From: an uncultured Methanosarcinales archaeon
Lineage (GTDB): Archaea; Nanobdellota; Nanobdellia; Woesearchaeales; JAGVZT01
Length of the DNA: 35,175 nt
Direction: 5' to 3'
NCBI GenBank assembly: GCA_964419615.1
Contig: CAYQPU010000016.1
Location: forward strand, 1-35,175
In this document: piece by piece, positions 12,653 to 24,909 of the stretch
Layout: each line of letters begins with the position of its first letter
How positions within the stretch are numbered: position 1 is the first letter of the stretch
Notes under the pieces: generated by a model
Told to the model about the DNA's origin: nothing
The model's database searches: none
Seen by the model: only the letters and a program-made list of their open reading frames with translations
Program-made: the position numbers and the translations under genes

Positions 12653-12741
12653 TGAGCCTGCAGGGATTCGAACCCCGACTAAGTGGTTTCCTCAGTAAAA
12701 ACTACCGAAGCCACTCGTGCTTTCCATTACACTACAGGCTC
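12653..12741 (-). tRNA. tRNA-Arg(UCG) with a 17-nt canonical intron (12688..12704)
   Basis: Acceptor GAGCCTG/CAGGCTC, anticodon stem AGTGG/CCACT, loop CT-TCG-G|A, T-arm CGGGG-TTCGAAT-CCCTG, A20 in the D-loop. Bulge-helix-bulge: CTTC/GAGG helix and AGT/ACT outer helix. No encoded CCA. Confidence 0.95.
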
Positions 12742-13503
12742 ATAAGCTGATTTAGGATCAAATTTTCCACTTAATATATCTTTTCTGTTTTGGTAATTTG
12801 TATTAGGTGGACAATGTCCAAATCTTTTCCATATTAAATATCTTGAATATTTGTAGTGGTTACTTGAACCAATTAAACTCATCCATTTGTTGATTGCATT
12901 GATACCAGTTATTTGGAGTTTATATTTTAAGCTTTCTGTTTCTTTTTTTGGTGTGCAATTATATAACTTGCATTTCAGACTTATTCTTTCTGACAAAACT
13001 TGAATTCCTTTTGCTAATGGTTTGGAACATGTAGTAAACATAATTCGAGGATAATAATTAAATTTCTGCTGAAATCTGCTTTTATTTTTAACCTTTCTAT
13101 CAAATGTAAAGCACCCATCTGTATCACAGTAACCTCTTAGAAACGCACACCAAATCTTAGAATAATTACTATTTACAACTTGTTTGGGAATTTCAACAAT
13201 AGAACTTTTTTTCCCAGAGGGAAATCCAAATTCAATTAGATTCTTTATTAATTCTCCACTACTTGTCCTAAACCCATAAGTGTTCCTGGGAAGATAATAT
13301 CTTCCTTTTAATTTCAAGTTGAAAGTTCTATTAAATAAAGGGATTACATGATTATCATAATATTGTTTCTCATCAATGTGACCACTTAAATCAAATTCTT
13401 TATGTTTATTTTTATACCTCAAATAACCATCTCCTGCATGAATTCCACAAATCTCTGACAGTTCAGGACTTATTGTATATTTCATACTTGTCATTTTAAT
13501 CAC
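12727..13503 (-). CDS. Free-standing two-motif LAGLIDADG endonuclease-family protein
   Basis: ICGIHAGDG and FLRGYCDTDG motifs about 100 aa apart; the stop codon lies inside the tRNA-Arg gene. Confidence 0.85.
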   Translation of the reverse strand: MIKMTSMKYTISPELSEICGIHAGDGYLRYKNKHKEFDLSGHIDEKQYYDNHVIPLFNRTFNLKLKGRYYLPRNTYGFRTSSGELIKNLIEFGFPSGKKSSIVEIPKQVVNSNYSKIWCAFLRGYCDTDGCFTFDRKVKNKSRFQQKFNYYPRIMFTTCSKPLAKGIQVLSERISLKCKLYNCTPKKETESLKYKLQITGINAINKWMSLIGSSNHYKYSRYLIWKRFGHCPPNTNYQNRKDILSGKFDPKSAYEPVV

Positions 13504-13745
13504 ACATTCAACTTTGATTGAACTTTAATAAATGATTTTCTAATGGTTCGAAAATTATAATTTTAACATTCAATTTTTTTGTAAGATTAAACATAAGATC
13601 AAGTTATGAGAAATAAGTTAATAAGTCCCACGTCTTAATGTCCAGTGGATTACCTTATCTATATATATATAATTATCTTACTGGCTCAAAAACAGAATTG
13701 AGAATTATCTATATAAATTTAATTGAAATAATAAAGTAAAAAAAA

Positions 13746-14027
13746 TTATTTCTTAATTAGGGTGATCTCAATTGTAGAAACCCTAACATCTTTACCTTCT
13801 TTGTTTTCAAATTCTTCTGAATTTATTTCTATGTTAGTAATCTCAGATTGTCCCAGTAAAAACCTCTTAGTTGCAACTTCAGCCACATCAACTGCCCTTG
13901 AAATAAATTTACCTCTGGCCTTGATAGTAACTTCTTTTGCATTTTGCACAGTGAACTGCATAACTACAGCAGTTACATAGTTCATAAAAGGCTTGTTGCC
14001 AACAAAAATAGAGTTGTCTGCAGCCAT
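13746..14027 (-). CDS. albA: DNA/RNA-binding protein Alba
   Basis: IFVGNKPFMNYV, IKARGKFISRAVDVAE, VSTIEI. Confidence 0.96.
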   Translation of the reverse strand: MAADNSIFVGNKPFMNYVTAVVMQFTVQNAKEVTIKARGKFISRAVDVAEVATKRFLLGQSEITNIEINSEEFENKEGKDVRVSTIEITLIKK

Positions 14028-24789: not shown

Positions 24790-24909
24790 TGATGAACGGC
24801 CACAGTGGCTTGGTCCTACCCGATCTCATCCCGAACTCGGAAGTAAAACAGGCCAACGTTCAGGACATTACTGTACTTTTGTACGGGAAATCCAGAAAGC
24901 TGTTCATCA
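24790..24909 (+). rRNA. rrf: 5S rRNA (stand-alone)
   Basis: 120 nt; terminal helix TGATGAACGGC/GCTGTTCATCA; conserved CCCGATCTCATCCCGAACTCGGAAGTAAA and GGGAAA segments; T-run immediately after. Confidence 0.93.

What the first reader, a model, noticed from the sequence alone, without database searches (positions are those of the whole stretch)
12653..13503. Free-standing LAGLIDADG gene whose last codons are the 5' end of an intron-containing tRNA-Arg
The ORF ends ...YEPVV*, encoded by GAG CCT GTA GTG TAA, which are nucleotides 1-15 of the tRNA. A BRE/TATA-like AGAAAAGATATATTAA lies inside the ORF about 30-45 nt before the tRNA, so the tRNA promoter is also coding sequence. The gene is in neither an intein nor the intron (only 17 nt), and both acidic catalytic positions (GDG, TDG) are present. 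This suggests a minimal tRNA-anchored selfish element, or a domesticated DNA-binding protein whose mRNA is trimmed by tRNA processing.
Basis: partly seen in the sequence, partly recalled or inferred. Interest (0 to 1): 0.75.

Follow-up and report, generated by a model that had tools for sequence, protein, structure and literature searches.

The report
Selfish endonuclease gene fused to tRNA-Arg
A homing-endonuclease gene has lodged itself in front of an essential tRNA gene of a tiny DPANN archaeon, bringing a replacement promoter and tRNA start inside its own coding sequence; it belongs to an undescribed, DPANN-wide family of endonuclease genes that live beside tRNA genes.

Summary
A 252-258 aa two-motif LAGLIDADG ORF (12727-13503, minus) ends on TAA at nucleotides 13-15 of tRNA-Arg(UCG) (12653-12741, 17-nt BHB intron). 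The tRNA's TATA box lies inside the ORF.

This is family-wide. In about 73 of 80 homologous loci from DPANN genomes, tRNA-Arg(UCG) sits directly 3' of the gene, with the stop codon often inside the tRNA.

The gene is patchy. Only 7 of 301 genomes of the same order carry this clade. A same-genus genome and two same-family genomes have alba followed by tRNA-Arg with no endonuclease gene, and 20 more empty sites were checked.

In the window, the old tRNA promoter and the first 16 nt of a displaced tRNA copy survive between alba and the endonuclease gene. Paralogues sit beside other tRNAs, and a second cassette in this genome ends 10 nt inside a tRNA-Leu.

Best reading (0.75): a selfish free-standing homing-endonuclease cassette that carries replacement tRNA parts. 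Cleavage and target are inferred, not shown.

An earlier follow-up in this scan (e1-4793070) reached the same reading on another genome. No paper describing it was found in the library searched.

New leads here:
- a shared CACTGGACA promoter element, also upstream of uvrA and nre;
- a possible link between these genes and tRNA introns.

The parts
13746..14027 (-). alba gene, the conserved left neighbour of tRNA-Arg(UCG) in this family of genomes
   Evidence: Pfam Alba 2.5e-18. The alba-rps17e block is syntenic at 71-83% identity in G020, G148, G275 and G218.
13691..13728 (-). Relic of the original tRNA-Arg promoter (TTCAATTAAATTTATATAG...)
   Evidence: 31 of 38 positions identical to the promoter that directly precedes tRNA-Arg in the same-genus genome G020. 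G148 carries a similar promoter.
13672..13687 (-). Relic of the first 16 nt of the displaced tRNA-Arg copy (GAGCCAGTAAGATAAT). It is degenerate: A6 would mispair in the acceptor stem.
   Evidence: 13 of 16 positions match G020 tRNA positions 1-16, and it sits at the same distance from the relic promoter. Comparable 10-12-nt relics lie upstream of the gene in L015 and L054, against none in control regions.
13617..13647 (-). Putative promoter module of the endonuclease gene: CACTGGACA, then about 13 nt, then the TATA-like TTATTAAC
   Evidence: CACTGGACA is the most enriched word upstream of these genes, found in at least 27 of 94 loci. In this genome it occurs 13 times against about 3 expected, nearly always 13-17 nt before a TATA box and a gene start.
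12727..13503 (-). Free-standing two-motif LAGLIDADG endonuclease ORF (likely start ATG 13494 or 13485; stop TAA 12727-12729)
   Evidence: AlphaFold2 model pLDDT 93.9. Best fold matches are the TliVMA intein endonuclease domain (7qsu), I-Tsp061I (2dch) and I-DmoI.
12771..12786 (-). tRNA promoter inside the ORF: BRE-like AGAAAAG plus TATATTAA at -37..-30, which also encodes part of the conserved C-terminal peptide R-K-D-I-L
   Evidence: Sequence. A TATA-like box sits at -38..-25 inside or at the end of the ORF in the 70 homologous loci aligned on tRNA +1.
12727..12741 (-). 15-nt overlap: the last four codons and the stop codon are tRNA nucleotides 1-15
   Evidence: In homologues the recurring overlaps of 10, 15 and 22 nt use tRNA U8-A9-G10, nt 13-15 or nt 20-22 as the stop codon.
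12653..12741 (-). tRNA-Arg(UCG) gene, the only clear tRNA-Arg(UCG) candidate found in this genome
   Evidence: Rfam 55.3 bits. Own tRNA-Arg model 73 bits. A heuristic genome scan for UCG anticodon arms found no other convincing candidate.
12688..12704 (-). 17-nt bulge-helix-bulge intron after tRNA position 37
   Evidence: Read from the sequence; fold.

Best explanation
This is a selfish, free-standing LAGLIDADG homing-endonuclease cassette specialised on the tRNA-Arg(UCG) gene.

The cassette holds its own promoter module and one endonuclease ORF. The last ~20 codons of that ORF double as a replacement BRE/TATA promoter and as the first 15 nt of the tRNA.

The cassette entered the resident alba-tRNA-Arg locus and cut the old promoter and the first 16 nt of the old tRNA copy off from the gene. 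Both are still visible upstream. The essential tRNA stays expressed from parts that the cassette supplies.

Spread is inferred to work as in other homing endonucleases. The enzyme cuts tRNA-Arg(UCG) alleles that lack the cassette, and recombinational repair copies the endonuclease gene together with the adjoining tRNA sequence. The occupied allele may be protected by its intron or by sequence differences in the D and anticodon arms.

Shown here: the anatomy, the family-wide linkage to the tRNA, empty sites, the relic, the patchy distribution, decayed copies, the fold and the retained catalytic residues.

Inferred: endonuclease activity of this copy, the target site, how self-cleavage is avoided, and the direction and date of the gain.
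For: 1. Linkage. 69 of 80 homologous loci from DPANN genomes have a tRNA directly 3' on the same strand: tRNA-Arg(UCG) in nearly all, and other tRNAs beside the two distant paralogues L079 and L081. Four more loci have multi-intron tRNA-Arg genes seen by eye. The remaining seven are cut by contig ends or have a truncated gene.

2. Patchiness. 131 of 301 genomes of the same order have any family member, and only 7 have the Arg(UCG)-linked clade at 350 bits or more. The same-genus genome G020 (99% complete) and same-family G148 (100%) have none.

3. Empty sites. G020, G148 and G275 have alba followed within about 60-110 nt by tRNA-Arg(UCG) with no endonuclease gene. In 20 further genomes, no family match lies in the sequence held upstream of tRNA-Arg(UCG): 1 kb for 18 of them, less where a contig ends.

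4. Relic. The old promoter and tRNA nt 1-16 lie at 13672-13728. Similar relics occur in L015 and L054.

5. Decay. Reading frames are disrupted in L057, L075 and L078, and many family copies carry internal stops.

6. Enzyme. The model has pLDDT 94 and matches archaeal intron- and intein-encoded LAGLIDADG endonucleases. D25 and D129 are invariant in 36 homologues.

7. Generality. Paralogues abut other tRNAs (Gln, Thr, Arg-UCU, Ile, Glu and long-variable-arm tRNAs) at their 3' ends. This genome has a second cassette ending on the TAG formed by nt 8-10 of a multi-intron tRNA-Leu-like gene.
Against: - No cleavage, target site or homing event has been observed.
- The protein tree follows the large DPANN lineages better than shuffled labels do, so long-term inheritance is mainly within lineages. 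Vertical descent with frequent loss cannot be fully excluded.
- The nearest homologue is only 60% identical, so no donor is known.
- The functional tRNA next to the gene resembles that of the same-family genome G275 rather than looking foreign.
- The relic matches G020's tRNA 5' end (13 of 16) hardly better than it matches the window's own functional copy (12 of 16). It proves a displaced copy, not its source.
- No homologue was found in viral contigs, so no transfer vehicle is known.
Confidence: 0.75

Rival explanations
1. A domesticated LAGLIDADG protein with a host function tied to tRNA-Arg(UCG), such as a WhiA-like transcription factor or an RNA-binding maturase. It would be inherited vertically as a conserved gene pair and often lost in reduced genomes.
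For: - The gene-tRNA pair is conserved across several DPANN phyla, and the protein tree clusters by lineage.
- There is a single copy of this clade per genome.
- A conserved ~55-residue helical C-terminal extension is present.
- WhiA and the bI3 maturase are among the fold matches.
- The promoter carries an element shared with host repair genes.
Against: - Both catalytic aspartates are invariant, which I recall is not the case in WhiA.
- The gene is missing from same-genus and same-family genomes that keep the same tRNA at the same place.
- Only 7 of 301 genomes of the order carry this clade.
- Copies with broken frames exist.
- The gene occurs beside both intron-less and intron-bearing tRNAs, so a splicing role is unlikely.
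- A displaced tRNA 5' relic points to an insertion.
Confidence: 0.13
2. Remnant of a larger integrated element (an integrase-type plasmid or virus that targets tRNA genes) of which only the endonuclease gene and a tRNA fragment remain.
For: - The layout of a tRNA 5' fragment, an insert and then a complete tRNA is that described for a recombinase-encoding insert at tRNA-Thr in Caldiarchaeum (PMC3293823).
- Synteny downstream of the tRNA differs between G000 and G020.
Against: - The insert holds a single ORF and no recombinase.
- The same minimal gene-tRNA unit recurs in about 73 loci with different flanks.
- No viral homologues were found.
Confidence: 0.05
3. Plain genome compaction: an ordinary gene happens to run into the next tRNA gene, with no functional or evolutionary link.
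For: DPANN genomes are compact, and conserved tRNA nucleotides (U8-A9-G10, nt 13-15) readily supply stop codons.
Against: - Adjacency to the same isoacceptor recurs across phyla.
- Paralogues also sit beside tRNAs.
- tRNA density around paralogues was about one per 3 kb, against a rough genome-wide figure of one per ~27 kb if each genome holds about 45 tRNA genes (my estimate, not measured).
Confidence: 0.02

Closest known systems
Phage T4 SegB, a free-standing GIY-YIG homing endonuclease in the T4 tRNA gene cluster (PMC2330249)
   Same: A free-standing endonuclease gene sits among tRNA genes. SegB recognises tRNA gene sequence and drives inheritance of its own gene together with the neighbouring tRNA genes (abstract).
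   Different: The enzyme family differs (LAGLIDADG, not GIY-YIG), as does the host (cellular archaeal chromosomes, not phage). Here the ORF physically overlaps the tRNA and encodes its promoter. A displaced tRNA 5' fragment marks the insertion. Activity is not shown here.
Archaeal intron- and intein-encoded LAGLIDADG endonucleases (I-Tsp061I 2dch, I-DmoI 2vs7, TliVMA and PI-PfuI intein domains)
   Same: Same fold and both catalytic acidic residues. These are the closest solved structures.
   Different: Those genes sit inside a BHB or group I intron of rRNA, or inside an intein, so splicing hides the insertion. This gene is free-standing: the only intron nearby is 17 nt. It avoids harm by supplying a replacement promoter and tRNA 5' end. 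It also has an extra ~55-residue C-terminal helical extension.
Collaborative or trans homing of free-standing endonucleases with introns in T-even phages (mobE and I-TevIII, PMC2790892)
   Same: A free-standing endonuclease gene sits next to a gene whose intron could interrupt the recognition site and protect the carrier allele. All 7 carriers of this clade in the order have an intron in tRNA-Arg(UCG).
   Different: The introns here are protein-spliced BHB introns, not group I introns. Protection by the intron is only a hypothesis here, and many carriers in other DPANN lineages have intron-less tRNAs.
Mobile elements that integrate into archaeal tRNA genes and leave tRNA fragments (Caldiarchaeum tRNA-Thr locus, PMC3293823)
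   Same: The layout of a tRNA 5' fragment, an insert and then a complete tRNA gene. Both link mobile DNA to tRNA gene disruption.
   Different: That insert is 1.8 kb and encodes a recombinase. Here the only gene is a homing endonuclease, and the insert itself carries the new tRNA promoter and 5' end in its coding sequence.
WhiA (bacterial transcription factor derived from a LAGLIDADG endonuclease, 8dy9)
   Same: Two LAGLIDADG-type domains plus a C-terminal helical extension; among the fold matches with TM 0.59.
   Different: By my recollection WhiA has lost the catalytic residues and is conserved throughout its lineage. This protein keeps both aspartates and is sporadic.

Membership tests
LAGLIDADG homing endonucleases (single-chain, two-motif type) | Two LAGLIDADG motifs, each ending in a conserved acidic residue | tested here: met
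   GIHAGDG (D25) and CDTDGC (D129), invariant in 36 homologues. Pfam LAGLIDADG_3.
LAGLIDADG homing endonucleases (single-chain, two-motif type) | Pseudo-dimeric alpha-beta-beta-alpha-beta-beta-alpha fold | tested here: met
   AlphaFold2 pLDDT 93.9, pTM 0.90. Foldseek probability 1.00 to 7qsu, 2dch and I-DmoI.
LAGLIDADG homing endonucleases (single-chain, two-motif type) | Site-specific double-strand cleavage of a long target in alleles that lack the gene | not testable with these tools
   Needs an in vitro cleavage assay.
LAGLIDADG homing endonucleases (single-chain, two-motif type) | Signs of a homing life cycle: sporadic distribution, empty target sites, decayed copies | tested here: met
   Patchy in 301 genomes of the order. 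Empty sites in G020, G148, G275 and 20 further genomes. Broken frames.
Intron- or intein-encoded homing endonucleases | ORF lies inside a self-splicing or BHB intron, or in frame inside an intein | tested here: not met
   The ORF is bounded by its own start and stop. The only intron is 17 nt. No group I intron was found by Rfam.
Free-standing homing endonucleases that mobilise flanking genes (SegB type) | Gene lies between host genes, and its target lies in a neighbouring conserved gene of the endonuclease-free allele | tested here: inconclusive
   The free-standing position next to a conserved tRNA is shown. That the target lies in tRNA-Arg(UCG) is inferred only from the strict linkage to this isoacceptor.
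WhiA-like domesticated LAGLIDADG regulators | Catalytic acidic residues lost; gene conserved throughout the lineage | tested here: not met
   Both aspartates are invariant. The gene is absent from same-genus and same-family genomes.
Integrase-type elements that target tRNA genes | A tyrosine or serine recombinase gene, with direct repeats of a tRNA segment at both ends | tested here: not met
   No recombinase lies between alba and the tRNA. A 5' tRNA repeat is present, but the insert has a single LAGLIDADG ORF.

The most novel reading that the evidence does not exclude
DPANN archaea host a radiation of LAGLIDADG endonucleases, each clade targeting one tRNA gene. Conflict between these enzymes and their target genes would be a driver of the extreme disruption of DPANN tRNA genes, through introns at many positions and through fragments. 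Introns and sequence changes would serve as protection against cleavage.

The cassettes also appear to be switched on with host DNA-repair genes through a shared CACTGGACA promoter element.

Hints found here:
- All 7 carriers of the Arg(UCG) clade in this order have an intron in the tRNA. At least 43 of 87 family-free genomes have an intron-less copy, giving a one-sided p of about 0.01, not corrected for kinship.
- Genomes with family members have fewer tRNAs detectable by a covariance model (median 10.5 against 16; Mann-Whitney p = 1.5e-4, uncorrected).
- The D-loop intron of the empty G020 allele resembles the cassette's promoter module.
Probability: 0.22. Interest if true: 0.9.

Novelty: new variant of a known kind. 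Interest (0 to 1): 0.72.

Why it matters
Free-standing homing endonucleases are known mainly from phages and organelles. Archaeal LAGLIDADG genes are known from rRNA introns and inteins.

Here an endonuclease gene survives in cellular chromosomes in a different way. It attaches to the 5' end of an essential tRNA gene and encodes that gene's promoter and first nucleotides within its own reading frame. This is an extreme case of dual coding, and a way to insert without harming the host.

The family is widespread in DPANN and has paralogues at many tRNAs. That makes an old question directly testable: why are archaeal tRNA genes so often interrupted or fragmented? One long-discussed idea, as I recall it, is that interruption protects tRNA genes from mobile elements.

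The enzymes would also be a natural set of long-target nucleases with a predictable target, the tRNA gene next door.

Tried and rejected
- ARAGORN's identity calls (Pro-cgg, SeC-tca) were rejected. The canonical intron position and the bulge-helix-bulge geometry give Arg(UCG).
- ARAGORN and the Rfam tRNA model miss most tRNAs of these genomes (10 and 11 hits in a 99%-complete genome). I therefore wrote a T-arm and acceptor-stem finder and read the remaining cases by eye.
- No homologue was found in viral contigs.
- I considered that the ORF might sit in a giant D-loop intron whose 5' exon is the upstream fragment. I rejected this because the downstream tRNA is complete, with a perfect acceptor stem, while the upstream fragment is degenerate.
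- I considered that G020's empty allele arose by deletion of a G000-like cassette. This is unlikely, because its D arm, anticodon stem and intron pattern differ from the cassette-borne tRNA.
- I looked for the idea that tRNA introns are footprints of the cassette's left end. Only the G020 tRNA contains the CTGGACA word among 126 tRNA calls, so there is no general support.
- The first 16 nt of the relic do not tell whether it derives from a G020-like copy or from a copy like the present one (13 against 12 matches).
- uvrA was found in only one of five relatives searched, so the promoter element could be compared at uvrA in one other genus only.
- Literature searches for LAGLIDADG with tRNA and DPANN or Woesearchaeota found only group I intron and unrelated papers.

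Full report
**What is there**

The window is AT-rich (about 30% G+C). It comes from a 1.48-Mb, 99%-complete DPANN genome; its closest protein relatives are labelled Woesearchaeota or Nanoarchaeota.

On the minus strand lie rps17e, alba (13746-14027), a 242-nt spacer, an ORF at 12727-13503, a tRNA at 12653-12741, and an ABC1 kinase gene.

The ORF is 258 aa from GTG, or 255 or 252 aa from the ATGs at 13494 and 13485. It matches Pfam LAGLIDADG_3 and has two motifs with their acidic residues, GIHAGDG and CDTDGC.

Its last codons, GAG CCT GTA GTG TAA, are tRNA nucleotides 1-15.

The tRNA is Arg(UCG). After position 37 there is a 17-nt intron (12688-12704). A central 4-bp helix CUUC/GAGG is flanked by the 3-nt bulges GGU and AAA, which is the canonical archaeal splice motif. 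Splicing restores the loop CUUCGGA. ARAGORN's Pro and SeC calls are mis-parses. The precursor folds as a cloverleaf, z = -4.7.

TATATTAA lies 30-37 nt before tRNA +1, inside the ORF.

**The protein**

An AlphaFold2 model built on 36 homologues has pLDDT 93.9 and pTM 0.90. It shows two alpha-beta-beta-alpha-beta-beta-alpha halves and a helical C-terminal extension of about 55 residues.

The best solved matches are the endonuclease domain of the TliVMA intein (7qsu), the archaeal rRNA-intron enzyme I-Tsp061I (2dch), I-DmoI, PI-PfuI and PI-SceI. The bI3 maturase and WhiA rank lower.

D25 and D129 are invariant in the family alignment.

**The linkage to tRNA-Arg(UCG) is a property of the whole family**

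More than 140 homologues of about 250 aa exist, at 42-60% identity. Many end in GPVV, GPVM, YKGL or SSFNG, which are translated tRNA 5' ends.

I fetched 80 loci from species-representative genomes labelled Woese-, Pace-, Nano-, Iain-, Micr- and Aenigmatarchaeota.

- ARAGORN and my own T-arm and acceptor-stem finder place a tRNA directly 3' on the same strand in 69 loci. It is tRNA-Arg(UCG) in nearly all; the two distant paralogues L079 and L081 sit beside other tRNAs.
- Four more loci have multi-intron tRNA-Arg genes visible by eye.
- The remaining seven loci are cut by contig ends or have a truncated gene.

In 40 loci the stop codon lies inside the tRNA, mostly 10, 15 or 22 nt in. It uses the conserved U8-A9-G10 (TAG), nt 13-15 or nt 20-22. 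In the Iainarchaeota clade a C-terminal tail ends about 25 nt before the tRNA.

Aligned on tRNA +1, all groups show a TATA-like box at about -38 to -25. It lies inside the ORF, or spans its stop codon. In the first group it is ATATTTTAAA, the codons for the nearly invariant I-L-(K/N) of the motif QRxxILxG. In the second group it is GATTAAAAA.

The tRNA promoter and tRNA start are thus carried by the coding sequence throughout the family.

**Patchy distribution and empty sites**

Among 301 genomes of the same order, 131 have some family member at E <= 1e-10. Only 7, including this genome, have the Arg(UCG)-linked clade at 350 bits or more. Several copies have internal stops. The same-genus genome G020 (99% complete) and same-family G148 (100%) have no match. 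This tally includes five unpublished genomes (G121, G132, G183, G208, G245); no other claim depends on them.

In G020, G148 and G275 the alba-rps17e block is syntenic (71-83% identity) and is followed within about 60-110 nt by tRNA-Arg(UCG), with no endonuclease gene.

I built a covariance model from intron-less tRNA-Arg(UCG) genes and searched 151 genomes with it. From 20 family-negative genomes I fetched the tRNA with the sequence upstream of it, 1 kb for 18 of them. All 20 are tRNA-Arg(UCG) with ordinary intergenic promoters, and none has a family match upstream.

**A relic of the insertion**

The spacer after alba in the window aligns with the alba-tRNA spacer of G020. It includes the old promoter (31 of 38 identical, 13691-13728) and GAGCCAGTAAGATAAT, which corresponds to G020's tRNA nt 1-16 (13 of 16, 13672-13687). 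Homology then stops.

The relic has a mismatch in the acceptor strand and is followed by a TA-repeat insertion.

Comparable fragments lie upstream of the gene in L015 (an exact 12-mer of the tRNA start, 201 nt upstream) and in L054 (a 10-mer). No such match occurred in control regions.

The layout is therefore: old promoter, old tRNA 5' fragment, cassette, functional tRNA. The first 16 nt do not reveal the relic's source (13 matches to G020, 12 to the present copy). The functional tRNA resembles that of G275. The direction and date of the event are inferred from parsimony only: one gain against two or three losses within the family.

**Paralogues and a second cassette**

Lower-scoring family members in other genomes abut other tRNAs at their 3' ends. 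Some are co-oriented (Gln, Thr, Arg-UCU or Arg-CCU). Others are convergent (Arg-UCU, Ile). Some lie just downstream of tRNAs with long variable arms.

In a further sample of 20 paralogues, 12 had an Rfam-detectable tRNA within about 300 nt. That is 13 tRNA hits in 42 kb, against a rough genome-wide expectation of one per ~27 kb.

This genome has a second, distant LAGLIDADG gene (contig 7, 13340-13948, 202 aa, Pfam 1.8e-14). Its stop codon TAG is nt 8-10 of a multi-intron tRNA-Leu(UAA)-like gene.

**Inheritance**

The protein tree groups Iainarchaeota, Aenigmatarchaeota with Micrarchaeota, and Pacearchaeota-type sequences far better than shuffled labels do. Spread is therefore mostly within lineages, or the association is old, with many losses.

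No homologue was found in viral contigs.

**Promoter element**

CACTGGACA, often doubled, is the most enriched word upstream of these genes, occurring in at least 27 of 94 loci.

In this genome it occurs 13 times against about 3 expected, usually 13-17 nt before a TATA box and about 50 nt before a start codon. The genes behind it are:

- uvrA;
- an archaeal Nre gene;
- two Bro-N genes;
- both LAGLIDADG genes;
- a few others.

It also precedes uvrA in G275, a genome of a different genus. A shared, possibly repair-related control of the cassettes is a lead, not a result.

**Introns**

- Of 73 linked tRNA-Arg genes, 43 have at least one intron.
- All 7 carriers in this order have one, whereas at least 43 of 87 family-free genomes have an intron-less copy. 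This gives a one-sided p of about 0.01, uncorrected for kinship and for detection bias.
- Genomes with family members have fewer detectable tRNAs (median 10.5 against 16, p = 1.5e-4, uncorrected).

**Comparison with known systems**

The closest functional parallel is T4 SegB (PMC2330249). The closest structural relatives are the archaeal intron and intein LAGLIDADG enzymes. The layout of fragment, insert and tRNA recalls the Caldiarchaeum tRNA-Thr locus (PMC3293823).

None of these combines a free-standing LAGLIDADG gene with a promoter and tRNA 5' end encoded in its own frame. The literature searches found no description of this arrangement.

An earlier follow-up in this scan (e1-4793070) reached the same reading on another genome. 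I re-derived it independently here. New in this report are the same-genus empty site, the relic, the in-ORF promoter across the family, the paralogue census, the second cassette and the promoter element.

**Verdict**

Activity and target remain to be shown. It is a new variant of a known kind.

Noticed in passing
window 13639-13647 (minus); also G000 contigs C1:13690, C1:42415, C3:51835, C7:13999, C10:9620, C11:17512, C13:37242, C15:5402, C21:6763: CACTGGACA, followed after about 13 nt by a TATA box, forms a recurring promoter class. It precedes uvrA, an archaeal Nre gene, two Bro-N genes, both LAGLIDADG genes and a few others. It also precedes uvrA in G275. This may be a repair-related regulon into which the endonuclease genes are wired.
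   Followed up: partly
G000 contig C7:13340-13948 (minus) and the tRNA starting at about C7:13349: A second, distant LAGLIDADG gene (202 aa). Its stop codon TAG is nt 8-10 of a multi-intron tRNA-Leu(UAA)-like gene, and it has the same promoter element upstream.
   Followed up: partly
whole genome G000: Only 10-11 tRNAs are detectable by ARAGORN or Rfam in a 99%-complete genome, so most tRNA genes must be interrupted by several or non-canonical introns. Across 149 genomes of the order, those with LAGLIDADG family members have fewer detectable tRNAs (uncorrected for kinship).
   Followed up: partly
L089:1509-1601 (minus), G020 tRNA-Arg(UCG): The empty same-genus allele has an 18-nt bulge-helix-bulge-like intron in the D loop and none at 37/38. 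The stretch running from the D loop into this intron (CTGGACATTTAATCTGGGAC) resembles the promoter module upstream of the endonuclease gene in the window (CTGGACATTAAGACGTGGGAC). It may be a footprint of a lost cassette, shared ancestry, or chance helped by the D-loop consensus.
   Followed up: partly
L024:3722-3930: In one Woesearchaeota locus the endonuclease gene lies between an intron-bearing tRNA-Arg(ACG) and tRNA-Arg(UCG). The two tRNAs share their 5' sequence, and a duplicated tRNA 3' end lies between them.
   Followed up: no
L010, L013, L030, L074 (3' of the endonuclease gene): These tRNA-Arg(UCG) genes carry up to three introns each, in the D loop or D stem, the anticodon arm and the T loop. 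Standard tRNA finders miss them.
   Followed up: no
window 13648-13671: A TA-rich run (TATATATATATAG...) of about 24 nt is inserted between the relic tRNA fragment and the promoter module. It is absent from G020.
   Followed up: no
window 24792-24908: A 5S rRNA gene (Rfam 71 bits) lies apart from any other rRNA gene in the window.
   Followed up: no
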